Below are positions 3 through 17,544 of a DNA stretch of 18,773 nucleotides, in pieces (within the stretch, counting starts at the first letter, position 1; every line of letters begins with the position of its first letter). Under the pieces are notes generated by a model that was given only the letters and a program-made list of their open reading frames with translations, made no database searches and was not told the origin of the DNA. This DNA is from an uncultured Gammaproteobacteria bacterium (GTDB lineage: Bacteria; Patescibacteriota; Patescibacteriia; UBA2591; UBA6264), in the NCBI GenBank assembly GCA_964507075.1, contig CAZDOL010000004.1, forward strand, positions 39,133-57,905, written 5' to 3'. The translations under genes and the position numbers were made by a program.

Positions 3-881
3 TTATTTTTTTCTTTTAAACAAAAGGAATTGGCTGGCAATGGCAATTGAAGACCAAGTACCAGTCACAATGCCCACCATCATGGCCAAAATAAAATTTT
101 GGGTTGACACTCCGCCGAACAAATAAATTGCCAGAAGGACGAAAATGGTAGTTAAGGACGTATTCAATGATCTAGTTATGGTTTCGTTAAGGCTTAAATT
201 AATTGTGCCAATCATATCTTTAGAGCGATGAAGTAAAAAATTCTCACGAATACGATCATAAATAACAATAGTGTCATTAACAGAGTAGCCCAAGACAGTC
301 AAAATAGCCGTGACAAAATAAACATTAATCTCCACTCCCTTAAAATAACCTAAAATAGCAAAAAATCCCAATAAAATTAAAACATCATGCGCTAAGGCAA
401 TGGTTGCTCCAATACCATATCTCCAAGATTCACCTTTCTTTAAAACACGAGACAATTTCCTAAAAGCCCAAGTAACATATAAAATAATGGCAATCAAAGA
501 TAAAATAATGGCATATCTAGCTTTGCGAGAAGCATCTCTTCCAATAACAGGTCCTACTGATTCATATCTCTCTTCTTGAACATCTCCTAAATTATTTAAA
601 ATTTGTTGATGAACATCTTCAGTAACTTCTACAAATCTCAAAATAATAGAACTTGTCCCAGTAGACCGAATATTAATTTCTCCTAAATCTAAAGGGCTTA
701 ATTGTTCAATAATTTCAGAATTAACTGGCTTTTCTCCGGGATACGCAACTTGTAATATTGACCCTCCCTTAAAATCAATTCCTAATTTTAAACCAAAAAT
801 AGACAAAGCTAAAATTGATATTACCAAAAAAATACCTGATATAAGTAGAAATTTTTTTCCGTGCGAAACAAAGTCAAACAT
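3..881 (-). CDS. secF: protein translocase subunit SecF
   Basis: 292-aa ORF with ATG at 879-881 and TAA at 3-5. It has an N-terminal TM helix, an external loop (GIDFKGGSILQV) and a C-terminal multi-TM block with the SVNDTIVIYDRIRE motif typical of SecF. It lies 21 nt downstream of secD on the same strand. Confidence 0.9.
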   Translation of the reverse strand: MFDFVSHGKKFLLISGIFLVISILALSIFGLKLGIDFKGGSILQVAYPGEKPVNSEIIEQLSPLDLGEINIRSTGTSSIILRFVEVTEDVHQQILNNLGDVQEERYESVGPVIGRDASRKARYAIILSLIAIILYVTWAFRKLSRVLKKGESWRYGIGATIALAHDVLILLGFFAILGYFKGVEINVYFVTAILTVLGYSVNDTIVIYDRIRENFLLHRSKDMIGTINLSLNETITRSLNTSLTTIFVLLAIYLFGGVSTQNFILAMMVGIVTGTWSSIAIASQFLLFKRKK

Positions 882-902: not shown

Positions 903-2525
903 TTATCTGGTAGTAATCCTCAAAAATGTTCTTGTAACAACAATAGCAGTCAACATACTTAAAAGAACTCCTATTCCTAATGTGAGCCCGAAACCACGTA
1001 CTAGTCCAGAACCAAACTGATAAAGAATGAAGCAAACGATAAGAGTGGTTATATTTCCGTCTCGAATAGCTGTCCATGCGTGACGGAAACCGTCATCAAT
1101 GGCCACAGACAATGGCTTACCTAAACGCCTTTCATCCTTAATACGTTCAAAAATCAAAATATTAGCATCAACCGCCATTCCTAAAGAAATAATAAAACCA
1201 GCCACGCCCGCTAAAGTTAGGGTAACTGGTATTAGTTTATATAAAGCTAAAACAATTAAAGCATAGATTGATAAAGCCACTATTGCTAACAATCCCCTCC
1301 ATTTGTAAAAACCTATCATGAAAATAGCTACCAACAAAAATCCTAAAAGGCCAGCTATAACACTCTTCTCCACTGAAATTTTGCCCAAGCTAGGACCAAT
1401 GTTTTGTTGCCCAACTAATTTAATAGGAACAGGCAAAGCTCCAGCTGACAAACGACGAGCTAATTCTTTGGCTTCAGTTAATTTAAAATCACCGCTAATA
1501 ACTGCTTGGCCACTGGTTATCTTTTCCCGCACTACAGGAATACTCAAGGGATAGTTATCTAAAAAAATAGCCACTGGTTTGTTTATGTTACGACCAGTAA
1601 TTTCTCCGAAAAGCTTTGCGCCTTCTTTATCAAATTCTAAAGAAACCTCTGGTTCTCCGCCCTGAGAACTAAAAGTAACCGAAGCTCTTTGAAGTTGTTT
1701 GCCAGTTAGTCCTGTATATTGCCATTGCCCATTTTGCCTAATCATTTCTTCTGACTGAGTAATAAATAAAATATGACTAGCCATCACTTCTGTAATCTCT
1801 CCTTGGTCATCTATTTTTTCATCTGTCTTTTTAATAATATGATAACCAATATTTGTGGTCACTAATTCTGGAGTAATTTGACCTACTATTAAATCCTCAA
1901 AAACTGCTTTCTCAAACTCCGGAATCATCATTCCTTTTGGAAACCATCCCAAATCTCCACCATTAGTTTTAGACCCTGGGCCCTCTGAATATTCTTGAGC
2001 TAAAAGAGAAAAATCAGCATCTGAAGCCAAGGCCTTTTCCAAAATGTCTTGCGCTCTTTCTTGAGCTTGTGAATTATATTCTGCAATCGCATCTTTTTCT
2101 GATTGACTTAACTCATGCGGAGGAGCCTGTTCTTTGAATTCCAATATTGGTGTTTCTCCAATCATATTCACTGCAGAATGAACATCTTCAATGCCAGGCA
2201 ATTGAATAATCAAATTCCACTCATTTTCTAATTTAGCGGTTTGAATAATAGATTCGGTAACGCCAAAAATATTTACCCTACGCTCAATAACATCTCGAGC
2301 ACCTTCTACTGCAGAAACCTTTTGCCCAGATGGAATATCGCTAGTATCTGTTCTATATGTTAATTGAGTGCCTCCCTGTAAATCAAGGCCCAAATGAACT
2401 TTGTTATTAGAAAACCACTGATGACCAGGGACCCATTCCGGAAGTTGAGGAATATCAATCAACAAAGCTAAAAGAGTAAAAGCAATTATCAAAACAAAAG
2501 TTGTCCAAAGTTTATTGCGATTCAT
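903..2525 (-). CDS. secD: protein translocase subunit SecD carrying an inserted parvulin-type PPIase domain in the P1 loop
   Basis: 540-aa ORF with ATG at 2523-2525. SecD hallmarks are present: LGLDLQGG, VAIFLDN...ISG.F...EA..LA..L..GALP, and a C-terminal 6-TM block with VDANILIFERIKDE. Residues ~150-260 read as a parvulin rotamase (GGDLGWF, IPEFEKAVF, GYHIIKK, ASHILF). Confidence 0.9.
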   Translation of the reverse strand: MNRNKLWTTFVLIIAFTLLALLIDIPQLPEWVPGHQWFSNNKVHLGLDLQGGTQLTYRTDTSDIPSGQKVSAVEGARDVIERRVNIFGVTESIIQTAKLENEWNLIIQLPGIEDVHSAVNMIGETPILEFKEQAPPHELSQSEKDAIAEYNSQAQERAQDILEKALASDADFSLLAQEYSEGPGSKTNGGDLGWFPKGMMIPEFEKAVFEDLIVGQITPELVTTNIGYHIIKKTDEKIDDQGEITEVMASHILFITQSEEMIRQNGQWQYTGLTGKQLQRASVTFSSQGGEPEVSLEFDKEGAKLFGEITGRNINKPVAIFLDNYPLSIPVVREKITSGQAVISGDFKLTEAKELARRLSAGALPVPIKLVGQQNIGPSLGKISVEKSVIAGLLGFLLVAIFMIGFYKWRGLLAIVALSIYALIVLALYKLIPVTLTLAGVAGFIISLGMAVDANILIFERIKDERRLGKPLSVAIDDGFRHAWTAIRDGNITTLIVCFILYQFGSGLVRGFGLTLGIGVLLSMLTAIVVTRTFLRITTR

Positions 2526-2600: not shown

Positions 2601-2633
2601 ATTAAAAAGTTTGGAGACTAAGTCTCCAAACTT
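2601..2633 (-). terminator. rho-independent terminator after secA
   Basis: 12-bp perfect stem AAGTTTGGAGAC / GTCTCCAAACTT (2607-2633) with a 3-nt loop. It overlaps the secA stop codon and is followed on the minus strand by TTTAAT, which continues the T-run begun by the stem end (CTTTTTAAT). Confidence 0.7.
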
Positions 2634-5325
2634 ATTCGTATTTAGGATAACAGCATTTTTTATATTTTTTATTAGAACCACAAGGACATGGGTCATTCCT
2701 CCCCACTTTTGTTTCTCCTTTTTTGCGAGCTCCCACAAATTTTACTTCTGCTTGTTTTTGAGGTGTAAAATTTTTAACTAAACCAATCTTATAGACAGAA
2801 TATATTATCTGCATATCCATAGCCTGCATTAATTCACTAAATTTTCCGCGAGACTCTTTTTTATATTCCACCAGAGGATCATGCTGGCCGTAAGCGCGCA
2901 AACCAATACCGCCTTTCAAATTATCAATTATCTGCAAATGGGATAACCAATAACGATCAATTGTTTGTAAATAAATTGACAAAAGAAGTCTATTTATTAG
3001 GGGTTTGCCTACCTTAGGATTCTCAATTTCCTTTTCTTTGCTGTTAATTTCATTCTCCAAATTCTTATACTCTTTTTTAGCAACATTAGATATATGTTCC
3101 ACAATATCACTAGCCTTAATAATAGATTTTAATTCTTCCTGCAAACTATCTGGAACTGGAAATATTTTTTTAATAATTTCTATAATAGCCAAAACATCTA
3201 TTTTATCATTTAATGTTTTAGCTTGCACAATTTTCTCTATTTCTTTTTTTATCTTTTCTAAAAAATTTTCTTTTAAGCTTTGATAATCCATCTTCAGAAC
3301 TCTTCTTCTTAAGCGATAAATTGTTTCCCTATGTTTACTTAAAACATCGTCATACTCTAAAAGGTGTTTACGGGTATCAAAATTAAATCCCTCAATTTTC
3401 TTTTGTGCTGACTCCATTGAATGGGAAACTATCTTGCTCTCAATTGGAATATCGTCTGGTATTTTAAATCCCTGCATTAAACTAGCCAAACGACTACCGC
3501 CAAAAATCCTCATTAGATCATCGTCCAAGGATAGAAAAAATTGACTTGAACCATCATCTCCTTGACGACCAGCTCGTCCTCTTAATTGATTATCAATCCT
3601 TCTTGATTCGTGACGTTCGCTACCAATAATATGCAATCCTCCGAGTCCAATAATCTCTTTTTGTTTTTCTAAATCAAAAGGATTGCCTCCCAAAACAATA
3701 TCTACTCCCCTTCCTGCCATATTAGTAGCCACAGTAACTGAACCCAGACGTCCTGCCTGAGCGATAATTTGCCCTTCCTTTTCATGATTAGTGGCATCTA
3801 AAACTTTGCAAGGAATTCCTTCCTTTTCTAAAAGATCTTTGATTATCCTATTCTTTTCTATAGCTCCCACTGTTTTTTCTCCAATAGTAAATCCTCCTGT
3901 GCCAATTAAAATTGGTTGACCATGGGAATGCCTTTCTTTGACGTCTTCAATAATAGCATTGAACTTAGCATCCTTGGTGCGGTAAATCCGATCAGCCAAA
4001 TCCTTTCTAATATTTGGTTTATTAGTTGGAACCGACACTACTTCTAAATTATATATTTTCTGGAATTCTTCGGCCTCTGTTTCTGCTGTACCAGTCATCC
4101 CGGATAATTTTTTATAAAAACGAAAATAATTCTGAAAAGTAATCGTCGCTAGGGTTCTAGATTCTTGTTTAACATCCACATTTTCTTTGGCCTCAATAGC
4201 CTGATGCAAACCATCAGAATAACGACGACCTTCCATTAAACGACCAGTGAATTCATCAATAATTATTATCTCTCCCTTTTGGATAACATAATCGCGATCT
4301 TTCTGAAAAAGAACCGTGGCTTTAAGCGCGGCATCAATATGATGCACTAAATCAAGATTATTGGTGGCCCAAGGGTCCTCGCCCAAGAGAGAAGCCGTCC
4401 TATCTATTCCCTCTTCGCTCAAAATTACTGTTCTTAATTTTTCATCTACCAAATAATCTTTACCGCTTTTTAAACTCTTGACTATATTAGCTAATTTATA
4501 ATAAAGGTTTGCTGACTCACCAGATGGAGCAGAAATAATTAAAGGGGTTCTGGATTCATCAATCAGAATGCTATCAATCTCATCAACAATAGCATAATTT
4601 AATTCCCTTTGTGCGCAATCTTTAAGGTCATGAACTAAATTATCCCTTAAATAATCAAAACCAAATTCATTGTTAGTGCCATAAGTAATATCACATTTAT
4701 AGGCCTGTTGGCGGGATACTGGTCGTAGGTAAGTTTGCTCAACCTTAAAACTTCCAGTTTTGTCTCTTTCTTTATCGCGCTCAGATCCCTGCTCATCTTG
4801 TCTATATGGTTCTGGGTCTATATATTCTGGATCATAAACAAAGGCTCCATCATGAACCAAACAAGCCACATTCAATCCTAAGGCTCTATAAATCTGTCCC
4901 ATCCAAACCGTATCTCTTCGCGCCAAATAATCATTAACGGTTATAACATGAACGCCTTTGCCATCCAGAGCATTTAAATAAATCGGGCAAGTAGAAGCTA
5001 GGGTTTTTCCTTCTCCAGTTTTCATCTCTGCAATTTTGCCTTGATGTAAAACAATGCCACCAATCAACTGCATATCGAAATGCCTTTGTTTTAAAGTTCT
5101 TTTGGCGGCCTCTCTAACCAAAGCAAAGGCCTCGGTTAAAATTTCATCCTTGGTCTGACCTTTAGATAATTTTTTTTGAAAATCAGCGCTTTTTGATTTT
5201 AAATCTTCCGCGCTTAGGTTTTGAAATTTATCCTCAAAAGCATTAATAGCATCAAGCAAAGGCTGAAGTTTCTCAATTTCTTTTTTATTAGAACCACCAG
5301 AAAACAATTTAGACAAAAAACTCAT
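2632..5325 (-). CDS. secA: preprotein translocase ATPase SecA
   Basis: Full-length SecA. It has Walker A (MKTGEGKTL), DEAD-like VDEIDSILIDE, the TGTA and GRAGRQGD motifs, and a C-terminal zinc finger CPCGSNKKYKKCC. The ORF-track start at 5340 is a TTG, so I prefer the ATG at 5323-5325 (MSFLSKLF...). Confidence 0.95.
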   Translation of the reverse strand: MSFLSKLFSGGSNKKEIEKLQPLLDAINAFEDKFQNLSAEDLKSKSADFQKKLSKGQTKDEILTEAFALVREAAKRTLKQRHFDMQLIGGIVLHQGKIAEMKTGEGKTLASTCPIYLNALDGKGVHVITVNDYLARRDTVWMGQIYRALGLNVACLVHDGAFVYDPEYIDPEPYRQDEQGSERDKERDKTGSFKVEQTYLRPVSRQQAYKCDITYGTNNEFGFDYLRDNLVHDLKDCAQRELNYAIVDEIDSILIDESRTPLIISAPSGESANLYYKLANIVKSLKSGKDYLVDEKLRTVILSEEGIDRTASLLGEDPWATNNLDLVHHIDAALKATVLFQKDRDYVIQKGEIIIIDEFTGRLMEGRRYSDGLHQAIEAKENVDVKQESRTLATITFQNYFRFYKKLSGMTGTAETEAEEFQKIYNLEVVSVPTNKPNIRKDLADRIYRTKDAKFNAIIEDVKERHSHGQPILIGTGGFTIGEKTVGAIEKNRIIKDLLEKEGIPCKVLDATNHEKEGQIIAQAGRLGSVTVATNMAGRGVDIVLGGNPFDLEKQKEIIGLGGLHIIGSERHESRRIDNQLRGRAGRQGDDGSSQFFLSLDDDLMRIFGGSRLASLMQGFKIPDDIPIESKIVSHSMESAQKKIEGFNFDTRKHLLEYDDVLSKHRETIYRLRRRVLKMDYQSLKENFLEKIKKEIEKIVQAKTLNDKIDVLAIIEIIKKIFPVPDSLQEELKSIIKASDIVEHISNVAKKEYKNLENEINSKEKEIENPKVGKPLINRLLLSIYLQTIDRYWLSHLQIIDNLKGGIGLRAYGQHDPLVEYKKESRGKFSELMQAMDMQIIYSVYKIGLVKNFTPQKQAEVKFVGARKKGETKVGRNDPCPCGSNKKYKKCCYPKYE

Positions 5326-5341
5326 AAAATTAAAATACAAA

Positions 5342-5733: not shown

Positions 5734-7308
5734 CTAAATTAGAGAAATGCCACCCATTTCTACGGGTTTATGCAATCCCATAATTTTTAAAATAGTAGGC
5801 GCGACATCAGCTAAAATTCCACTTGGAGTAACAGAATCCAAATTAGCCAACCCTGCAGAAAAAGTCCTATCGCCCACTCCTTTTTTGGTCACAATAAAAG
5901 GAACTGGGTTCGTAGTGTGCTCTTTGTTTATTTCTCCGCTCCTAATATTTATCATTTGTTCACAATTGCCATGGTCGGCAGTAATCACACTTACCCAATT
6001 TTCTTTTAAACACAAATTAACAATTTTCCCCAGTAAACCATCCAAAAATTCTAAGGCCTTAATAGCAGCTGACAAATTGCCAGTATGGCCCACCATATCT
6101 GGATTAGCAAAATTAACCACTACTAACTTATATTGACGTGAGCCAATCGCCCAAAGAACCTGATTAGTAATTTGACTAGCTGACATTTCTGGTTTTTGGG
6201 CATAAGAATCAACTCGAGGAGATGGAATTAAAATTCGTTTTTCATAAGGAAATGGATTCTCTCTACGACCATTAAAGAAAAAAGTCACATGGGCGTATTT
6301 TTCTGTCTCAGCTATATGAACTTGTCCCAACTTTTGAGCGCTAACAACTTCTCCTAAAGTATTATTGATATCTTCCGACAAAAAAGCAACCTTAACTGGC
6401 AAATCTTTTTCATATTCAGTAAGAGTAGCAAAGAACAAGTTTTTTATCTTTTCTCTTTTGAATTTGTCAAATTTGTCTGAAACCAAAGCTTTGGTCAACT
6501 GACGGGCTCTATCCGGACGAAAATTAAAAAATATGACAGCGTCATTGTTTTTAATAGACATGGATTCCTGTTCATCAGATTCTTTAATTACGACAGGAAT
6601 AAATTCTTCATCATATATTCCGGCCTGATGAGAGGATTCAATGGCTTCTAAGGGGCTAGCAAATTCTTGCTCAGCAAAACCTTTAACCATAGCCAAATAA
6701 GTTCTTTCTATTCTTTCCCAGTTATTGTCCCTATCCATAGCATAAAAACGTCCAGAAAGCGTTGCTATCTTGCCTATCTTTAATTCTTCCATTCTCATTA
6801 TTAAGTCAGAAATAAAACCATGAGAGCTATCTTTGGGGGAATCTCTACCATCTAAAAATGCATGAATATAAACATTCTTTATGCCTTTTTTGGCGACTAA
6901 TTCTAAAAGAGCATGTAAATGATTAATAGAGGAATGAATAGCACCACTGGAGATTAAACCTATTAAATGTAAATCTGATTGATTTTTTTTGGTATGTTCA
7001 ATAGCTTGTAAAAATGCTTGATTATCAAAAAAACTATTATCCATAATAGCTTGCGTAATGCGAGGCAAACTTTGCCAAACAATACGACCTCCCCCCAAAT
7101 TCAAATGCCCTACTTCCGAATTTCCCGGCTCGCCCCAAGACAAACCCACCGATTCTCCCGAAGCCTGAATAGTGGTAGCAGGATAATCAGTTACTAATTG
7201 GTCTAAGATAGGTAAACGCGCTGAAGTAACAGCATTGCCGTTGCCAGCTGTGGCCACCCCAAAACCATCCAAAATAATTAGAAGAACTGGTTGAATATTT
7301 TCAGACAT
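5734..7308 (-). CDS. gpmI: 2,3-bisphosphoglycerate-independent phosphoglycerate mutase (copy 1)
   Basis: iPGM hallmarks are present: LDGFG, PGNSEVGHLNLG (catalytic Ser), FLDGRDS, GRFYAMDRD, AETEKYAHVTFFFNGG-like, NPDMVGHTG and TADHGN. The ORF-track start at 7386 is a TTG that overlaps the upstream gene and reads through a GC palindrome. I prefer the ATG at 7306-7308 (MSENIQPVLLIILDGFG). Confidence 0.9.
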   Translation of the reverse strand: MSENIQPVLLIILDGFGVATAGNGNAVTSARLPILDQLVTDYPATTIQASGESVGLSWGEPGNSEVGHLNLGGGRIVWQSLPRITQAIMDNSFFDNQAFLQAIEHTKKNQSDLHLIGLISSGAIHSSINHLHALLELVAKKGIKNVYIHAFLDGRDSPKDSSHGFISDLIMRMEELKIGKIATLSGRFYAMDRDNNWERIERTYLAMVKGFAEQEFASPLEAIESSHQAGIYDEEFIPVVIKESDEQESMSIKNNDAVIFFNFRPDRARQLTKALVSDKFDKFKREKIKNLFFATLTEYEKDLPVKVAFLSEDINNTLGEVVSAQKLGQVHIAETEKYAHVTFFFNGRRENPFPYEKRILIPSPRVDSYAQKPEMSASQITNQVLWAIGSRQYKLVVVNFANPDMVGHTGNLSAAIKALEFLDGLLGKIVNLCLKENWVSVITADHGNCEQMINIRSGEINKEHTTNPVPFIVTKKGVGDRTFSAGLANLDSVTPSGILADVAPTILKIMGLHKPVEMGGISLI

Positions 7309-7334
7309 AATAATGCTTCGCTTAATTTCTAATT

Positions 7335-7354
7335 CCTGCCTGCCGGCAGGCAGG
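7335..7354. repeat. perfect 20-bp GC-rich palindrome CCTGCCTGCCGGCAGGCAGG between the two gpmI genes
   Basis: Read directly from the sequence. It is self-complementary over all 20 nt and lies in the 67-nt gap between the gpmI-2 stop (7376-7378) and the gpmI-1 ATG (7308). No T-run follows on either strand. Confidence 0.85.
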
Positions 7355-7375
7355 CAATCCCCAAGCACCTGTCCT

Positions 7376-8956
7376 CTATGTTCCAATGAGGCTCTGTCCC
7401 TTCATTTCAGGGGGTTCTTTTTGATTTAAAAGACGTAAAACAGTTGGCGCTACATCTGCCAATTGTCCATCGTTTCTTAATTTTACGGATTTAAATTCTG
7501 AGCTCACTAAAATAAAAGGAACTGGATTAATGGTGTGAGTGGTTTTAATTTCTCCTGTTCTTAAATCAATCATTTCTTCGGCATTACCGTGGTCCGCAGT
7601 AATAATTATAGAATATTTTTTTTTCTGAGCTAGATTAACTAATTTTTTTAAATTATTATCTACGCATTCCACGGCTTTAATAGCGGCCCGAAGATTACCA
7701 GTATGCCCTACCATATCTGTGTTAGCAAAATTAAGAGCAATAAAATTTGGTTGATTAGAATTAATTTCTTGACAAATCTTTTGACAAATCTTATTCGCGC
7801 TCATTTCTGGACGCAAATCATAAGACTGAACATCAAGAGAAGGAACAATAATCCTTTTCTCGTTAGATACTATATGGTCATGTCCTCCGTTAAAAAAGAA
7901 AGTAATATGAGCATATTTTTCAGTCTCCGCAATATAAACCTGTTTAGCGCCATTTAAAATAATGGGCAATGTCTTTTCAATATCTTGACTAGGATAAGCT
8001 GTTCTAATGTTATCTAAATCTGGGCCAAAGTCTGTCAATGCTACAAAAAATAAATTAGAAAGACACTTTTTTCTTTTAAAAGATTGTGGATTATTTTTAT
8101 TAAAATCTTTTTGAATAAAAGCCTTGCTAAGTTCTCTTGCCCTGTCAGACCTTAGGTTCATAAAGAAAAGCAAATCATTATCTTCCATTAATCCTATTGG
8201 TTTTTCTTTAGAGTCAACAACTAGCGTAGGACTAATAAACTCATCTGTTTCTTTGCGGTTATATGCGCGCACAATTGCTTCTTGAGCGCTAGAAACTTTA
8301 AGACCTTGTCCGGAAACTAAAAGATGATAGGCCTTTTCAATATTATCCCATTTCTTAACTCTATCCATGGCGTAAAAACGCCCGATTATACTTGCAATAT
8401 GCACTTTTAAAAAACGATGATTATTAATTTTGTCCTGAAATCTTTCTAAAATTCTAATTGCCGCATGCTGAGCAGAATCACGACCATCAGTAAAAAGATG
8501 TAAAAAGACCTTCTCTACTCCCTGGGTCTCCAAAAAATTAATCATAGCCAACCAATGCTGAGGAGAAGAATGCGCGCTATTCTCTTCTGTGACCAAACCC
8601 ATAAGATGAATCTGAGATTTATATTTTTTCCAATGAGAAATTCCCTCTAAAAAAGCGGGGTTTTTGGAAAATCTACCGTCTTGAATAGATTCATTAATGT
8701 CAAGAGCGTCATCACGAACAATTCTGCCAGCCCCTAAATTTAAATGGCCAGCTTCAGAATTTCCTGGTTGACCTGATGGTAACCCTACTCTGCGACCATG
8801 AGCGCAAAGTTCAGTATAAGGATATTTTTGTTTTAAGCTATCAAAAAAAGGCTTTTGAGCCAGCTCAATAGCATTGCCTTCATTAGCTGACGCTACGCCC
8901 CAACCATCTAGAACAACCAACATTGTTTGTTGATTGCATTGATTTTTATTAATCAT
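7376..8956 (-). CDS. gpmI: 2,3-bisphosphoglycerate-independent phosphoglycerate mutase (copy 2, divergent paralog)
   Basis: 526-aa ORF with ATG at 8954-8956. It has the same iPGM motif set as copy 1 (LDGWG, PGNSEAGHLNLG, FTDGRDS, GRFYAMDR, AETEKYAHITFFFNGG, NTDMVGHTG, TADHGN), but the sequence between motifs is clearly diverged. Confidence 0.9.
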   Translation of the reverse strand: MINKNQCNQQTMLVVLDGWGVASANEGNAIELAQKPFFDSLKQKYPYTELCAHGRRVGLPSGQPGNSEAGHLNLGAGRIVRDDALDINESIQDGRFSKNPAFLEGISHWKKYKSQIHLMGLVTEENSAHSSPQHWLAMINFLETQGVEKVFLHLFTDGRDSAQHAAIRILERFQDKINNHRFLKVHIASIIGRFYAMDRVKKWDNIEKAYHLLVSGQGLKVSSAQEAIVRAYNRKETDEFISPTLVVDSKEKPIGLMEDNDLLFFMNLRSDRARELSKAFIQKDFNKNNPQSFKRKKCLSNLFFVALTDFGPDLDNIRTAYPSQDIEKTLPIILNGAKQVYIAETEKYAHITFFFNGGHDHIVSNEKRIIVPSLDVQSYDLRPEMSANKICQKICQEINSNQPNFIALNFANTDMVGHTGNLRAAIKAVECVDNNLKKLVNLAQKKKYSIIITADHGNAEEMIDLRTGEIKTTHTINPVPFILVSSEFKSVKLRNDGQLADVAPTVLRLLNQKEPPEMKGQSLIGT

Positions 8957-9054: not shown

Positions 9055-10338
9055 TTATTTTCTTTCTGGCCATTGAGGGATATGAAATAATTCGTCCTCT
9101 ATTTCCGTTAAACGATTGTATTTGGCGACTCTTTCTCCCCTGTTGGGAGCGCCAGCTTTAATAAAATCAGCATTTACTGCAACTGCCAAATCAGAAATAA
9201 AAGTATCATTGGTTTCTCCTGAACGATGAGAAATGATAATTTTATAATTATTTTTTCTGGCCAAAGCAATACATTGCATTGTTTCTGTTAGTGTTCCGAT
9301 TTGATTCAATTTAATCAGAATTGAATTGGTTGATTTATCCTTAATCCCCCTTTCTAATCTTTTAATATTAGTGGTAAACAAATCATCTCCCACTACCAAT
9401 ATTTTCTGCTCTAATTCTTCAACTTTTTTAGTTAGTGATGTCCATGGGGTCCAATCATCTTCAGCAAAAGGATCTTCTAAAAATAGGAGGGGGTACTTTT
9501 TTATCCAACTCCAATAAATTTTAGCCATATCATCACTAGATCTTTTTTTCTTTTCAAAAATATATTTCTTTATTTTTTCATTATAAAAAACCGAAGCAGC
9601 CACATCAACTCCGAAGAATATCTCTTCTCCTAATGTATGTTTTGTAAATTCGGTCACAGCAACCAAAAGTTTAAATGCCTCATGAGTATTTTTAAGCTTA
9701 GGGGCAAAACCACCTTCATCTCCCACAGCAAAAGTTAAACCTCTTTTCCTTAAAATTTCTTTTAGGGCTTCAAAAACTTCTGTGCCTACTCTCATTTTCT
9801 CCTTTAATGTTTTCGGGCTAACTGGAATAACCATAAATTCTTGAATATCCAATCCAGAATCAGAATGAATCCCACCATTTATAATATTAAATAAAGGAGT
9901 TGGCAAAATATATTCAGTAGAAGGAATATCATAAATTTCTCTGATATATTTATACAAAGGTTGTCCAGCATCTTGAGCGGCTACGCGAGCTATAGCCAAA
10001 GAAACTCCTAAAATTGCATTAGCCCCTAAACTACTTTTGTTTGGAGTATTATCAATGGCCAACATCTTTTGATCCATTTTTATAACATCTATTTCTTGTC
10101 CGATCAATACAGGCGCAATTATCTTTTCTACATTCTGACAAGCATTAAGAACTCCCTTGCCTGAATAGCGATTATCGTTGTCTCTTAGCTCCAGGGCCTC
10201 ATATTTGCCAGTAGAAGCGCCAGAAGCTACGGCTGCCTTAGCCTGAATATTATTTTCTAAAATAACCTTAACCTCAATTGTAGGATTACCACGAGAATCT
10301 AAAATTTCTCTAGCCTTGATTTCTTTGATTTTTGTCAT
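9055..10338 (-). CDS. eno: enolase (phosphopyruvate hydratase)
   Basis: 427-aa ORF with ATG at 10336-10338. The N-terminus IKAREILDSRGNPTIEV, the SGASTG, GDEGGFAP, VGDDLFTTN and IKLNQIGTLTET motifs, and SHRSGETNDTFISDLAVA are all canonical enolase signatures. Confidence 0.97.
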   Translation of the reverse strand: MTKIKEIKAREILDSRGNPTIEVKVILENNIQAKAAVASGASTGKYEALELRDNDNRYSGKGVLNACQNVEKIIAPVLIGQEIDVIKMDQKMLAIDNTPNKSSLGANAILGVSLAIARVAAQDAGQPLYKYIREIYDIPSTEYILPTPLFNIINGGIHSDSGLDIQEFMVIPVSPKTLKEKMRVGTEVFEALKEILRKRGLTFAVGDEGGFAPKLKNTHEAFKLLVAVTEFTKHTLGEEIFFGVDVAASVFYNEKIKKYIFEKKKRSSDDMAKIYWSWIKKYPLLFLEDPFAEDDWTPWTSLTKKVEELEQKILVVGDDLFTTNIKRLERGIKDKSTNSILIKLNQIGTLTETMQCIALARKNNYKIIISHRSGETNDTFISDLAVAVNADFIKAGAPNRGERVAKYNRLTEIEDELFHIPQWPERK

Positions 10339-14923: not shown

Positions 14924-15469
14924 ATGTTCCAATTCCGCTCAAAAATAACTATAAAAGTTTTAGGATATTTCTTTCTTAATCCTCAGAAAACTCACTATGT
15001 CAATGATTTAGCTATTGTTTTAGGTTTAGATGTTGGCAATCTTTTTCGCAAGCTAAAAGAGCTTGAAAAAGAAGGTATCCTCTGTTCAGAAAAACGTGGT
15101 AATCAAAAATATTATAGACTAAACAAAAATTATTCTTTATTGAAAGAAGCGAAACGAATGTATAACGCCAAATATGGAATTATTGAGATACTTAAAGAAA
15201 AATTAAAAGGAATTAAAAAATTGAAAGAAGCATATATTTTCGGATCTTATGCCAAAGGAAATTTTCAACAAGAAAGCGACATAGATATCTTGTTGATTGG
15301 AAATCACTCTTCACTTGAAGCAAAAAGAAAAATTTTGCCATTAGAAAAAAATATTGGACGGGAAATAAACATTATTGACATTTCAACAGAAGAAATGAAA
15401 TCACGCCAGAAAAAAAATGATGATTTTACAAAAAACATCTTCTCTCAAAAAACTATAAAAATTTATTAA
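14924..15469 (+). CDS. winged-helix DNA-binding domain fused to a minimal (MNT/MntA-type) nucleotidyltransferase
   Basis: 181-aa ORF. The N-terminal ~70 aa read as a wHTH (YVNDLAIVLGLDVGNLFRKLKELEKEGILCSEKRGNQKYYRLN). The C-terminal half has the minimal NTase motif G-S-x9-11-D-x-D (IFGSYAKGNFQQESDIDILLIG, nt 15242-15286). Confidence 0.8.
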   Translation: MFQFRSKITIKVLGYFFLNPQKTHYVNDLAIVLGLDVGNLFRKLKELEKEGILCSEKRGNQKYYRLNKNYSLLKEAKRMYNAKYGIIEILKEKLKGIKKLKEAYIFGSYAKGNFQQESDIDILLIGNHSSLEAKRKILPLEKNIGREINIIDISTEEMKSRQKKNDDFTKNIFSQKTIKIY

Positions 15470-15471
15470 AA

Positions 15472-15879
15472 ATGTTTGAACATTTTAACTTTTCTAAAAA
15501 ACAAATAGACAAATATTATAAATCTGCTAAAAGAGACTTTAAAATTGCGCTTGATTCTAGTGTGCCAGAAGTTTCTTTTCGTTTTTGTTATGACGCCATA
15601 TTGAAATTGGCTATTACAATATGTGCCGAAAAAGGATTAAGGGTAAAAGCGAGAAAAGGGCATCATATAGAATTAATAAAAAAATTATCTTTCTATTTTA
15701 ATGATCCGGAAATTAAGATATTAGCAAACGAGATGAGGGCAAAAAGAAACTTGGATTTATATAGTGGTGGCTTTTTGATTTCGATTAAAGAAGCTAAAAG
15801 TTATGTCCAGTGGACAAAACAAATTTTTCAGAAGACTGAAAAACACTTTAAGGGCAAACAATCAAAATTAATATTATAA
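15472..15879 (+). CDS. HEPN-domain protein, putative partner of the upstream nucleotidyltransferase
   Basis: 135-aa helical ORF starting 2 nt after the NTase stop, in the classic MNT-then-HEPN order. It contains R57-x6-H64H65 (RVKARKGHH, nt 15640-15666), which fits the Rx4-6H HEPN motif. It also has KRNLDLY where DUF86/HepT proteins carry RNxxxH. Confidence 0.6.
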   Translation: MFEHFNFSKKQIDKYYKSAKRDFKIALDSSVPEVSFRFCYDAILKLAITICAEKGLRVKARKGHHIELIKKLSFYFNDPEIKILANEMRAKRNLDLYSGGFLISIKEAKSYVQWTKQIFQKTEKHFKGKQSKLIL

Positions 15880-16488: not shown

Positions 16489-17544
16489 ATGGAAAATAGA
16501 TTTAAAAAACGAATTAAAATAACCACAAATTTTTTAGAAAAAATTTCAAGAATAGATGAGTTTAAGGGTTTTTGGCATGGTGGCCTGCAACTAAACCCAC
16601 AAATTCTAGGCCGATTAAAATCTTCAGTTATTATTACCAGTAGTGGTGCGTCTACCCGCATTGAAGGGGTAAAAATGAGTGATGAAGAAGTGTCTCGCTT
16701 ATTGCGTGGATTAAAATCAAAACCACCAAAGGGCCGTGATGCAGAGGAAGTAGCTGGCTATGCTGATTTATTGGGAAGAATTTTTGATAATTATAAAACC
16801 CTTAAATTAACAGAGGGACAAATCCTTCAATTTCATAAAATATTACTTAACTTTTCTACTAAAGATAAAGAACACAAGGGTAAATATAAAACCGTTGATA
16901 ATATAGTTGTGGCTAAAAATGAAAAAAATGAACAAGTTGTTTTATTCAGGCCAACTCCACCATATTTAGTCAAAAAAGAAATGGATGATGTTCTTTTTTG
17001 GATGAACCATGCCCTTGAAAAAGAAGAAACTCACCCGTTACTAATTATCGCTAATTTTATTTTTGAATTTTTAGCAATCCATCCTTTTGACGATGGCAAT
17101 GGTAGACTTTCACGTGCTCTAACTAATTTATTACTTCTTAAAAGTAATTATTCTTACATTCCCTATGTTTCGCTAGAAGAAATCATTGAAGAACAAAAAA
17201 TAGAATATTATCTTGCCCTTCGAGCAACGCAAAAAAATCATAAGACCAAAAACGAAAACATTACGCCCTGGGCAAATTTCTTTTTAGATGTCTTGGTTGA
17301 ACAGGCCAATCGAGCAAAAAAGCTTATGGGGGCAGAGCAATCCGAAAAAATGCTTTCCGAAAAACAATTAAAAATTTATCGTCTTTTTGATAAAAAAAAC
17401 ACCCTAAGCGTGTTAGAAATAGATAAGTTTCTTAAAGGTAAAATTCCCAAAGTAACCATTAAGCAAGGGTTGTCTCGATTGATGAATTTAAAATTCGTAG
17501 AGCGTTTGGGACTTGGAAGGAGCACAAGGTATAAAAAAATTTAA
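16489..17544 (+). CDS. Fic-family protein (class II, self-inhibited AMPylase type) with a C-terminal winged-helix domain
   Basis: 351-aa ORF. It has an intact Fic active-site motif HPFDDGNGRLSR (nt 17080-17115, HxFx[DE]GNGRxxR) and an N-terminal inhibitory-helix motif STRIEG ([ST]xxxE[GN], nt 16651-16668). The C-terminal ~70 aa are wHTH-like (LSVLEIDKFL...VTIKQGLSRLMNLKFVERLG). Confidence 0.9.
   Translation: MENRFKKRIKITTNFLEKISRIDEFKGFWHGGLQLNPQILGRLKSSVIITSSGASTRIEGVKMSDEEVSRLLRGLKSKPPKGRDAEEVAGYADLLGRIFDNYKTLKLTEGQILQFHKILLNFSTKDKEHKGKYKTVDNIVVAKNEKNEQVVLFRPTPPYLVKKEMDDVLFWMNHALEKEETHPLLIIANFIFEFLAIHPFDDGNGRLSRALTNLLLLKSNYSYIPYVSLEEIIEEQKIEYYLALRATQKNHKTKNENITPWANFFLDVLVEQANRAKKLMGAEQSEKMLSEKQLKIYRLFDKKNTLSVLEIDKFLKGKIPKVTIKQGLSRLMNLKFVERLGLGRSTRYKKI

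What the first reader, a model, noticed from the sequence alone, without database searches (positions are those of the whole stretch)
1746..2108. Parvulin PPIase domain, apparently circularly permuted, inserted in the periplasmic P1 loop of SecD
SecD residues ~150-260 read SQAQERAQDILEKALASDADFSLLAQEYSEGPGSKTNGGDLGWFPKGMMIPEFEKAVFEDLIVGQITPELVTTNIGYHIIKKTDEK...EVMASHILFITQ. These are the parvulin/PpiC signature blocks (helix, DF..LA..YS, GGDLGWF, MVPEFE.A.F, GYHIIK). The block sits between the SecD LEFKE segment and the conserved P1-base segment (VAIFLDN...GALP). In canonical parvulins such as E. coli Par10, the His-containing first strand (xHILV) is N-terminal. Here ASHILF (nt 1764-1781) comes after GYHIIKK (nt 1827-1847). 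That order suggests a circular permutation that would bring the insertion termini together, while both parvulin histidines are retained. A foldase built into the translocon accessory subunit would sit exactly where secreted chains emerge. That could replace a separate PrsA/PpiD/SurA-type chaperone in a reduced genome. I am not aware of a characterised SecD-parvulin fusion.
Basis: partly seen in the sequence, partly recalled or inferred. Interest (0 to 1): 0.72.

Follow-up and report, generated by a model that had tools for sequence, protein, structure and literature searches.

The report
SecD with built-in permuted parvulin foldase
The protein-export helper SecD of this small-genome (Patescibacteria-type) bacterium carries, in its outward-facing domain, a complete parvulin-type protein-folding domain whose first strand has moved to the end. 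This puts a folding helper where exported proteins emerge, and we found no paper describing it.

Summary
The 540-aa SecD (window 903-2525, minus strand) contains a parvulin/PpiC domain at residues 141-255 (nt 1761-2105). Pfam Rotamase gives E 3e-19 and the best solved relative is PrsA. The domain sits between the SecD_1st segment and the P1-head subdomain.

The circular permutation is supported by five lines of evidence:
- The canonical profile lacks its first strand at the N-terminus.
- That strand (ASHILF, H251) matches after beta4, and re-ordering gives one continuous match worth 10 bits more.
- The excised domain folds confidently (pLDDT 94, pTM 0.86) with elements in rotated order.
- H229 and H251 are kept in 121/121 and 120/121 fusion SecDs.
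- In two-parvulin variants, the first core and the trailing strand lose their histidines together.

The fusion is widespread. All 120 best SecD homologues carry it, all named sources are Patescibacteria, and at least 55 clusters at 50% identity include one-core, two-unit and SecDF-fused forms. No paper describes it.

Caveats:
- This allele has Gly at the catalytic Asp/Cys position, unique among 121 sequences but real (23 contigs).
- 3D contacts could not be inspected.
- Replacement of PrsA is untested.

It is a new variant of known kinds, of moderate to high interest.

The parts
903..2525 (-). secD gene, 540 aa, carrying the parvulin insert
   Evidence: ORF. TIGR01129 secD scores 377 bits against a cut-off of 244. 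Thermus SecDF 3aqp gives E 1.2e-77. The exact protein occurs on 23 contigs.
2454..2522 (-). TM1 of SecD (residues 2-24); everything up to about residue 375 is extracytoplasmic
   Evidence: Helix 2-24 in the AF2 model. Topology is taken from homology to TtSecDF.
2127..2306 (-). SecD_1st / P1 N-terminal segment (residues 74-133), ending in the strand PILEFKE
   Evidence: PF21760, E 1.2e-13. Strand 127-133 in the model.
1761..2105 (-). Whole circularly permuted parvulin domain (residues 141-255)
1812..2105 (-). Parvulin core alpha1-alpha2-alpha3-beta2-alpha4-beta3-beta4 (residues 141-238). Alpha1 is extended N-terminally (141-165) and carries the invariant N151.
   Evidence: Rotamase profile positions 6-97 map to residues 142-235. 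DSSP of both models. N151 is kept in 121/121.
1980..1982 (-). Codon GGC = Gly182, at the catalytic Cys113 (Pin1) / Asp74 (Par14) position
   Evidence: This position is D in 114, C in 5, E in 1 and G in 1 of 121 sequences; the G is the window protein. The allele is on 23 contigs.
1839..1841 (-). His229 (equivalent to Pin1 His157, on beta4)
   Evidence: 121/121 conserved.
1797..1811 (-). Hairpin loop 239-243 that joins the old C-terminus (beta4) to the old N-terminus (beta1); length is variable across the family
   Evidence: The K233-to-H251 distance is 12-42 residues across 121 sequences. The loop shows 28% mean pairwise identity.
1761..1796 (-). Relocated first strand beta1' (residues 244-255, ITEVMASHILFI), containing His251 (nt 1773-1775; equivalent to Pin1 His59)
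   Evidence: Matches canonical HMM positions 2-15 after the core. Adds 10 bits when re-ordered. pLDDT is 97-98. H251 is kept in 120/121.
1428..1712 (-). SecDF P1-head subdomain (residues 272-366)
   Evidence: PF22599, E 6e-29, profile positions 20-114. Aligns to Thermus SecDF from residue 160.
918..1409 (-). SecD transmembrane bundle TM2-6 (residues 373-536) with the conserved proton-path Asp453
   Evidence: PF02355. D453 aligns to the Asp of Thermus SecDF AAVDGNVL, which is D340 by my own numbering from memory. D453 is kept in 121/121.
3..881 (-). secF, the partner subunit, immediately downstream
   Evidence: ORF. PF02355 and Sec_GG on the identical gene in L081.
2632..5340 (-). secA, immediately upstream, giving a secA-secD-secF cluster
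   Evidence: ORF. SecA Pfam domains on the identical gene in L081.

Best explanation
This is a functional SecD subunit of the SecDF export motor that has a PrsA-like parvulin domain built into its extracytoplasmic P1 domain. The domain sits at the boundary between the P1 base strand (PILEFKE) and the mobile P1 head.

The parvulin is a natural circular permutant. The chain enters through an elongated helix alpha1, runs through the usual alpha2-alpha3-beta2-alpha4-beta3-beta4 elements, and turns back through a variable loop. It then supplies the strand that is normally first (ASHILF, with the first catalytic histidine) as a hairpin partner of beta4, before leaving into the P1 head.

Shown here:
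- the domain identities;
- the insertion point;
- the rotated order of elements;
- conservation close to that of SecD's own domains;
- the wide distribution in Patescibacteria.

Inferred:
- The domain rides on or next to the proton-driven P1 head.
- It captures unfolded chains as they leave SecYEG.
- In most family members it catalyses prolyl isomerisation. This would make it a covalent version of the PrsA, PpiD or Mycoplasma dome foldases that otherwise dock on the translocon.
- In this allele the catalytic Asp is Gly, so it probably acts mainly as a substrate-binding or holdase module with weak or no isomerase activity.
For: Domain identity:
- Pfam, NCBIfam and PDB sequence hits identify the parvulin.

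Permutation:
- The canonical HMM matches positions 12/13-93 on the core and positions 2-15 on residues 245-259.
- Re-ordering raises the score from 94.4 to 104.2 bits with a continuous match over positions 2-93. Shuffled strands reach at most 97.9.
- BLASTP of the re-ordered sequence against a PrsA domain gives 49% identity over 97 columns.
- phmmer aligns the trailing strand to the first strand of SurA's next parvulin domain.
- The excised model has pLDDT 94.2 and pTM 0.86, with the order a1-a2-a3-b2-a4-b3-b4-b1'.
- The full-length model shows the same hairpin.
- The fold matches solved PPIase 8hm3, E 6e-7, TMq 0.70.

Selection on the domain:
- S180 is kept in 121/121, T/S224 in 121/121, H229 in 121/121 and H251 in 120/121. 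The pocket residues L192, M200 and F204 are kept, and Asp or Cys occupies position 182 in 119/121.
- Mean pairwise identity is 59% for the core and 64% for beta1', against 68-71% for SecD domains and 28-41% for linkers.

Comparative test:
- All 22 assessable one-core representatives keep the trailing xHIL motif, and none has an upstream beta1.
- In two-unit forms the first core loses its His, or is degenerate beyond detection, in 23 of 24. The trailing strand loses its His in about 18 of 22. The inner beta1 keeps its His in all 15 assessable forms. The second core keeps its His in 14 of the 15 assessable among the 16 forms tabulated.

Distribution and context:
- All 120 best homologues carry PF00639 together with SecD domains.
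- 55 of the top 150 clusters at 50% identity are SecD fusions.
- The gene lies in a secA-secD-secF cluster.
- Parvulin foldases are known to work at SecDF/SecYEG: Mpn444/Mdp dome (10.1101/2024.09.05.611430; 10.1101/2025.04.25.650208), PpiD-YfgM (PMC9643414) and SurA-SecDF (PMC9987972).
Against: - No activity, binding or localisation data exist.
- Model coordinates could not be read, so His229-His251 contact and the beta2-beta1' pairing are inferred from DSSP strings and topology. The DSSP strand limits suggest the two histidines may be diagonal and not directly opposite.
- Foldseek found only one family of solved parvulins (8hm3/8hm4) and not Pin1, Par10 or PrsA. This is unexplained.
- The window protein lacks the catalytic Asp/Cys (Gly182), so this copy may not be an isomerase.
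- Whether these genomes lack a separate PrsA-like foldase was not testable.
- The orientation of the parvulin relative to the SecY exit is unknown.
Confidence: 0.72

Rival explanations
1. The inserted parvulin is a catalytically silent substrate-binding module, like the PpiD parvulin or SurA P1. It simply enlarges the substrate-gripping surface of the P1 head, and prolyl isomerisation plays no role in the family.
For: Gly182 replaces the catalytic Asp/Cys in the window protein, and this allele persists in nature on 23 contigs. Two-unit variants carry one clearly degenerate parvulin. Inactive parvulin domains are common in Sec-associated chaperones (PMC9643414).
Against: The full catalytic set is kept almost without exception across sequences only 54-91% identical to the window protein. 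That set is His251, Asp/Cys182, Thr/Ser224 and His229, plus the pocket residues L192, M200 and F204. In two-unit forms one unit always keeps both histidines. Such conservation is hard to explain without catalysis or at least an intact active-site groove.
Confidence: 0.22
2. There is no circular permutation. The parvulin is an N-terminally truncated domain lacking beta1, and the ASHILF strand is a structural strand of the SecD P1 head or base that only resembles beta1 by chance.
For: On its own the strand is short and scores weakly (independent E 0.06-0.28). The Pfam P1-head profile is matched only from position 20, so some head element is unaccounted for. 3D contacts were not inspected.
Against: - The excised domain, without the P1 head, models as one compact unit including this strand at pLDDT 97-98 and pTM 0.86.
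- Re-ordering adds 10 bits, more than 8 SD above shuffled strands.
- His251 is kept in 120/121 sequences.
- The strand keeps its His in all 22 assessable one-core forms but loses it when the first core is degenerate. That pattern is expected only if the strand completes the first core.
- A four-stranded parvulin sheet lacking its central strand would not be stable (established fold knowledge).
Confidence: 0.07
3. The fusion is an artefact, either an assembly chimera or a mis-called gene joining secD to a neighbouring prsA-like gene.
For: None beyond the metagenomic origin of the sequences.
Against: The ORF is a single continuous frame with SecD segments on both sides of the insert. The identical protein occurs on 23 contigs from at least 3 samples. 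More than 120 homologues down to 54% identity have the same architecture, and more distant cluster representatives (34-63% identical over the probe) share it.
Confidence: 0.01

Closest known systems
SecDF of Thermus thermophilus / Deinococcus radiodurans (PDB 3aqp, 5yhf, 5xan)
   Same: Same family and topology: TM1, P1 base and P1 head, six-helix RND-like bundle, and the conserved TM Asp. E is 1.2e-77 and Foldseek E is 2.5e-23. A separate secF lies next door.
   Different: Thermus has a 43-residue variable segment (117-159) between LEFR and LTG. Here that position holds 141 residues, including a complete parvulin domain. SecD and SecF are separate genes here.
PrsA foldase lipoprotein of Firmicutes (PDB 6vj6, 4wo7, 1zk6)
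   Same: Closest parvulin by sequence: E 2.3e-16, and 49% identity after re-ordering. It is an extracytoplasmic, membrane-tethered foldase acting on newly exported proteins in single-membrane bacteria. Its parvulin is also an inserted domain in a host scaffold.
   Different: PrsA has the canonical strand order (beta1 first). It is inserted in an NC chaperone domain, anchored by a lipid, forms dimers, and is a separate gene. Here the host scaffold is SecD itself and the order is permuted.
PpiD-YfgM and SurA contacts with SecYEG/SecDF in E. coli
   Same: Parvulin-containing chaperones positioned at the periplasmic face of the translocon to receive emerging chains (PMC9643414, PMC9987972).
   Different: Those associations are non-covalent and dynamic. 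The PpiD parvulin is inactive, and the chaperone domains (SurA-N type) are absent here.
Mycoplasma pneumoniae dome complex (Mpn444/Mdp lipoproteins on SecDF)
   Same: A genome-reduced, single-membrane bacterium couples a parvulin-type PPIase directly to SecDF above the SecYEG exit (10.1101/2024.09.05.611430; 10.1101/2025.04.25.650208).
   Different: There the PPIase sits in large separate trimeric lipoproteins that cross-link to SecDF. Here a single small domain is part of the SecD polypeptide.
Tandem parvulins such as SurA P1-P2
   Same: The linear order core-beta1-core occurs in them. phmmer aligns the SecD core plus trailing strand to the SurA P1 core plus the first strand of P2, which suggests how the permuted segment could have arisen.
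   Different: In SurA each domain has its own preceding beta1. In one-core SecD no beta1 precedes the core.

Membership tests
SecD (protein translocase subunit, RND superfamily) | Family HMM above curated cut-off | tested here: met
   TIGR01129 scores 377.4 bits against a cut-off of 244.4. PF21760, PF22599 and PF02355 are all above their cut-offs.
SecD (protein translocase subunit, RND superfamily) | TM1, large extracytoplasmic P1, then a five-helix bundle, with fold similarity to solved SecDF | tested here: met
   AF2 model helices at 2-24 and 381-539. Foldseek matches 5yhf, 5xan and 3aqp at E 1e-21 to 1e-23.
SecD (protein translocase subunit, RND superfamily) | Conserved proton-relay Asp in the TM4 motif (Thermus D340 by my own numbering from memory) | tested here: met
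   D453 in MAVDANIL aligns to AAVDGNVL of 3aqp. It is kept in 121/121 sequences.
SecD (protein translocase subunit, RND superfamily) | Adjacent SecF partner | tested here: met
   secF lies at 3-881, directly downstream.
SecD (protein translocase subunit, RND superfamily) | PMF-dependent stimulation of translocation | not testable with these tools
   Needs genetics or biochemistry.
Parvulin / PpiC-type PPIase | Family HMM above curated cut-off | tested here: met
   PF00639 scores 70.2 bits (cut-off 21.7) and PF13616 scores 77.4 bits (cut-off 22.5).
Parvulin / PpiC-type PPIase | Parvulin fold: four-stranded antiparallel sheet plus four helices | tested here: met
   The excised model has pLDDT 94.2 and contains all eight elements. 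Foldseek matches solved PPIase 8hm3 with TMq 0.70 and rmsd 2.0 A. Caveat: other solved parvulins were not retrieved.
Parvulin / PpiC-type PPIase | Canonical order with beta1 at the N-terminus | tested here: not met
   Profile positions 1-5 (Pfam) or 1-11 (own HMM) have no match before the core, and beta1 follows beta4. It is therefore a permuted variant and not a canonical member.
Parvulin / PpiC-type PPIase | Dual-histidine motif (Pin1 H59 and H157) | tested here: met
   H251 and H229 are present and kept in 120/121 and 121/121 sequences. Their spatial contact is inferred only.
Parvulin / PpiC-type PPIase | Catalytic Cys/Asp (Pin1 C113, Par14 D74) and Thr/Ser (Pin1 T152) | tested here: inconclusive
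   T224 is present. Position 182 is Gly in the window protein but Asp or Cys in 119/121 homologues. The feature is met for the family and not met for this allele.
Parvulin / PpiC-type PPIase | Hydrophobic proline pocket (Pin1 L122, M130, F134) | tested here: met
   L192, M200 and F204 are present. F204 is kept in 121/121, M200 in 110/121 and L192 in 108/121.
Parvulin / PpiC-type PPIase | Measured cis-trans isomerase activity | not testable with these tools
   Needs a protease-coupled or NMR exchange assay.
Natural circular permutant | Same secondary-structure elements in cyclically rotated order, with the relocated element homologous to the canonical terminal element | tested here: met
   Rotated order in the model. 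Re-ordering adds 10 bits and gives a continuous HMM match. The re-ordered sequence is 49% identical to PrsA.
Natural circular permutant | Non-sequential 3D superposition on a canonical structure | not testable with these tools

The most novel reading that the evidence does not exclude
SecD of Patescibacteria is an energy-coupled extracytoplasmic foldase. The proton-driven swing of the P1 head would be mechanically transmitted, through the long alpha1 stalk and the beta1' exit strand, to a permuted parvulin. Capture, prolyl isomerisation and release of the emerging chain would then be timed by the SecDF power stroke. This would provide powered folding assistance outside the membrane, where no ATP is available, and would replace stand-alone PrsA/PpiD-type factors in these minimal genomes. 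It would also be the first natural circularly permuted parvulin, with nested two-unit derivatives.
Probability: 0.2. Interest if true: 0.85.

Novelty: new variant of a known kind. Interest (0 to 1): 0.62.

Why it matters
How exported proteins are handed from the Sec channel to folding factors is an open question. Current evidence rests on transient contacts (PpiD, SurA) or on large accessory complexes (the Mycoplasma dome).

A conserved covalent SecD-parvulin fusion is natural evidence that the SecDF P1 domain and a prolyl isomerase/chaperone act on the same substrate at the same place. It offers a minimal one-polypeptide system to test this.

It also adds a circularly permuted topology, and nested two-unit derivatives, to the parvulin fold. 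It flags a lineage-specific feature of Patescibacteria cell-envelope biogenesis that current annotation, which says only 'SecD', hides.

Tried and rejected
- **Model coordinates.** They are not exposed, so His-His distance and strand pairing could not be measured.
- **Genome-collection scan.** Only L001, L002, L003, L010 and L014 were SecD-related, so taxonomic breadth rests mainly on source names.
- **L052/L066.** I suspected these 1175-aa ORFs (Thermotogae, Bipolaricaulota) were SecDF fusions. Pfam shows SurA_N + 2 Rotamase + TPR + DUF3105 and no SecD, so this was rejected.
- **Sequence of PDB 8hm4.** I tried to read it through a Bacteroidales homologue. That protein is not its close relative, so this was abandoned.
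- **Covariation between beta1' and beta2/beta4.** Inspected by eye in the alignment; there is too little variation to be informative.
- **Literature.** Searches for a described SecD-parvulin fusion or a permuted parvulin found nothing.
- **Assembly artefact and chance resemblance.** Both were considered and rejected (see rivals).
Full report
**1. What is in the sequence**

The finding lies inside a single 540-aa ORF on the minus strand, window 903-2525. It is preceded by secA (2632-5340) and followed by secF (3-881). Nt 1746-2108 encode residues 140-260, GYHIIKK is residues 227-233, and ASHILF is residues 249-254.

Pfam assigns the following:

| Domain | Residues | Note |
|---|---|---|
| Sec_GG | 38-62 | |
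| SecD_1st | 74-133 | |
| Rotamase PF00639 | 142-235 | 70.2 bits, cut-off 21.7, E 3e-19; profile positions 6-97 of 97 |
| Rotamase_3 | 148-236 | |
| SecDF_P1_head | 272-366 | profile positions 20-114 |
| SecD_SecF_C | 373-536 | |

NCBIfam gives secD TIGR01129 at 377 bits (cut-off 244), plus PrsA, SurA and PpiC models on the insert. Against solved structures, the insert is closest to Bacillus anthracis PrsA (6vj6, E 2.3e-16), followed by SurA, other PrsA entries, Par10 and Pin1.

**2. Where the domain is inserted**

phmmer against Thermus SecDF aligns residues 15-131 to Thermus 13-116, and residues 273-535 to Thermus 160-422. The 141 residues 132-272 thus take the place of the 43-residue Thermus segment 117-159, between the strand LEFR/LEFKE and the LTG motif. 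This is the N-terminal boundary of the P1-head subdomain.

The full-length AlphaFold2 model (46-sequence alignment, pLDDT 80.6) has TM1 at 2-24 and the membrane bundle at 381-539. It matches SecDF crystal structures at Foldseek E 1e-21 to 1e-23. The insert is therefore on the outer side of the membrane. The proton-path Asp (D453) is kept, so the SecD part looks functional.

**3. Is the parvulin circularly permuted?**

Five independent lines say yes.

(a) *Missing N-terminal strand.* Both Pfam and a canonical-parvulin HMM that I built from 43 full domains found in loci L004-L080 match the core only from about position 12-13. The first strand has no counterpart upstream. The same HMM matches its positions 2-15 (eevkArHiLvktee) to TEVMASHILFITQS at residues 245-259, after the core.

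(b) *Re-ordering test.*
- Placing residues 244-256 in front of 152-240 gives one continuous match to HMM positions 2-93 at 104.2 bits.
- The core alone scores 94.4 bits, and 20 shuffled versions of the strand score 95.6 +/- 1.05, maximum 97.9.
- BLASTP of the re-ordered sequence against an Anoxybacillus PrsA domain runs end to end at 49% identity.
- phmmer also aligned core plus trailing strand to the SurA P1 core plus the first strand of P2.

(c) *Structure prediction.*
- The excised segment 134-262, modelled with a 25-sequence alignment, folds with pLDDT 94.2 and pTM 0.86.
- Its elements run alpha1 (long), alpha2, alpha3, beta2, alpha4, beta3, beta4, then a 5-residue turn, then a 12-residue strand at pLDDT 97-98. 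This is exactly the canonical beta1-alpha1-alpha2-alpha3-beta2-alpha4-beta3-beta4 order rotated by one element.
- The full-length model has the same hairpin.
- In canonical parvulins beta1 and beta4 are antiparallel neighbours and the termini lie together (established knowledge of the fold). A beta4-turn-beta1 hairpin is therefore the natural way to close them.

(d) *Conservation.*
- In 121 fusion SecDs, H229 is kept in 121/121, H251 in 120/121, and the ASHIL motif in at least 111/121.
- S180 is kept in 121/121 and T/S224 in 121/121. The pocket residues L192, M200 and F204 are kept, and Asp or Cys occupies position 182 in 119/121.
- Mean pairwise identity is 59% for the core and 64% for beta1'. 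SecD's own domains show 68-71%, and the linkers and hairpin loop only 28-41%.
- The loop varies from 12 to 42 residues between K233 and H251. This is expected for a linker that joins former termini.

(e) *Comparative test.*
- Among the top 150 clusters at 50% identity, 55 are SecD-like.
- All 22 assessable one-core forms keep the trailing xH(I/L/V)3 motif, and none has an upstream beta1.
- About 24 forms carry two units in the order core1 - beta1(a) - core2 - trailing strand.
- In these, core1 has lost its beta4 histidine or is degenerate beyond detection in 23 of 24.
- The trailing strand has lost its histidine in about 18 of 22.
- beta1(a) keeps its histidine in all 15 assessable forms.
- Core2 keeps its histidine in 14 of the 15 assessable among the 16 forms tabulated.
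- The trailing strand therefore shares the fate of the first core and not of the core it follows. This is what is expected if it completes the first core.
- The two-unit forms then read as a canonical parvulin nested in the hairpin loop of a decayed permuted one.

Foldseek of the excised model retrieved the solved Bacteroides PPIase 8hm3/8hm4 (E 6e-7, TMq 0.70, rmsd 2.0 A over 109 columns). It did not retrieve Pin1, Par10 or PrsA entries. I cannot fully explain this. The 3Di alphabet depends on sequence separation to spatial neighbours, which a permutation alters. 8hm4 is also the one solved parvulin whose sequence match covers the long alpha1.

**4. Distribution**

- All 120 best full-length homologues (54-91% identity) carry PF00639 together with the SecD domains. 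They are named only 'SecD' by their sources.
- Every source name that gives a taxon says Patescibacteria, Parcubacteria or Kuenenbacteria. Uhrbacteria, Magasanikbacteria and unnamed Patescibacteria appear among genome loci.
- One high-GC MAG labelled Binatia (L002) has a two-unit form.
- A fused SecDF of 905 aa with one permuted parvulin also exists (P0134).
- The exact window protein is on 23 contigs from at least three samples, so neither the fusion nor its Gly182 is an assembly error.

**5. The odd residue**

Residue 182 (codon GGC, nt 1980-1982) corresponds to Pin1 Cys113 and Par14 Asp74. It is Asp in 114 and Cys in 5 of 121 sequences, and Gly only here.

A Pin1 C113D substitution supports full activity according to 10.1101/2024.09.05.611430. 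From my own knowledge, Ala or Ser at this position lowers Pin1 activity by one to two orders of magnitude. This allele is thus likely a poor isomerase, while the family as a whole looks catalytic.

**6. Mechanism**

*Shown:* a SecD with an outward-facing, conserved, complete parvulin domain next to the mobile P1 head.

*Established background:* the P1 head swings between I, F and super-F forms and is proposed to pull substrates using the proton gradient (PMC5974789). Parvulin foldases act at the translocon exit, either non-covalently (PpiD-YfgM, PMC9643414; SurA-SecDF, PMC9987972) or as a dome on SecDF in Mycoplasma (10.1101/2024.09.05.611430; 10.1101/2025.04.25.650208).

*Inferred:* the built-in domain binds emerging unfolded chains and, in most lineages, isomerises prolyl bonds as they are released by the P1 head. 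It would be a covalent PrsA-equivalent for a lineage with very small genomes. Whether stand-alone parvulins are absent from these genomes could not be tested. None is encoded in this 18.8-kb window.

**7. Novelty**

Eight literature searches found no description of a SecD-parvulin fusion or of a permuted parvulin. The library is limited to open-access papers and preprints, and automatic Pfam annotation already shows both domains on these proteins.

Both parts belong to well-known families. The combination, the permuted topology and the nested two-unit derivatives are new variants. I rate it 'new variant of a known kind', interest about 0.6.

Noticed in passing
window 1980-1982 (-), SecD residue 182: Gly (GGC) sits at the parvulin catalytic Asp/Cys position. 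Of 121 fusion SecDs, 114 have Asp, 5 Cys and 1 Glu, and only this protein has Gly. The identical protein is on 23 contigs from at least 3 samples, so it is a real allele that has probably lost most isomerase activity.
   Followed up: yes
P0125, P0126, P0144, P0154 and others; L002:5575-7728 (+); L003:5644-7680 (+): These are SecD variants of 655-795 aa with two parvulin units in the order core1 - beta1 - core2 - trailing strand. Core1 and the trailing strand have mostly lost their histidines, while the inner beta1 and core2 almost always keep theirs. This suggests a canonical parvulin nested in the hairpin loop of a decayed permuted one.
   Followed up: partly
P0134 (905 aa, Logan contig): A single-chain SecDF fusion that also carries one permuted parvulin, with a 50-residue beta4-beta1' loop. 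Its composition looks high-GC and its taxon is unknown.
   Followed up: partly
L002 (DATJFD010000021.1, MAG labelled Candidatus Binatia): This high-GC contig has a two-unit SecD-parvulin and an adjacent secF. It is the only fusion found under a non-Patescibacteria label. It may reflect mis-binning, or the fusion may extend beyond that group.
   Followed up: no
window 5734-7386 (-) and 7376-8956 (-): Two tandem genes for 2,3-bisphosphoglycerate-independent phosphoglycerate mutase overlap by 11 nt and lie next to enolase (9055-10338). The upstream copy (7376-8956) matched the iPGM_N and Metalloenzyme models. The downstream copy was judged from its translation only. A duplicated glycolytic enzyme is unexpected in a small genome.
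   Followed up: no
window 14924-15469 (+) and 15472-15879 (+); 16489-17544 (+): A nucleotidyltransferase-domain protein is followed 3 nt later by a 135-aa protein with no Pfam hit. This looks like an MNT/HEPN-type toxin-antitoxin pair. A Fic-domain protein lies further on.
   Followed up: no
window 2073-2075 (-), SecD residue N151 in the extended alpha1 helix: This Asn is invariant in 121/121 fusion SecDs, within a helix extension (residues 141-153) that canonical parvulins lack and that is otherwise poorly conserved (40% identity). It may anchor the stalk helix to the domain or to SecD.
   Followed up: no
window 1776-1829 (-), residues 233-250; homologues: The loop between beta4 and the relocated beta1 ranges from 12 to 42 residues (counted from K233 to H251). 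The long versions are acidic low-complexity (E/V/G/I repeats).
   Followed up: partly
model mf4373872d83a against PDB: Foldseek retrieved only the Bacteroides PPIase 8hm3/8hm4 for the permuted parvulin model. It missed all Pin1, Par10 and PrsA entries that sequence search finds easily. This may be a blind spot of 3Di-based search for circular permutants.
   Followed up: partly
L066:5263-8787 (+) and L052 (Bipolaricaulota / Thermotogae MAGs): These are 1175-aa proteins combining SurA_N, two parvulin domains, a long TPR array and a C-terminal DUF3105. They are unrelated to SecD but are an unusual chaperone architecture.
   Followed up: partly
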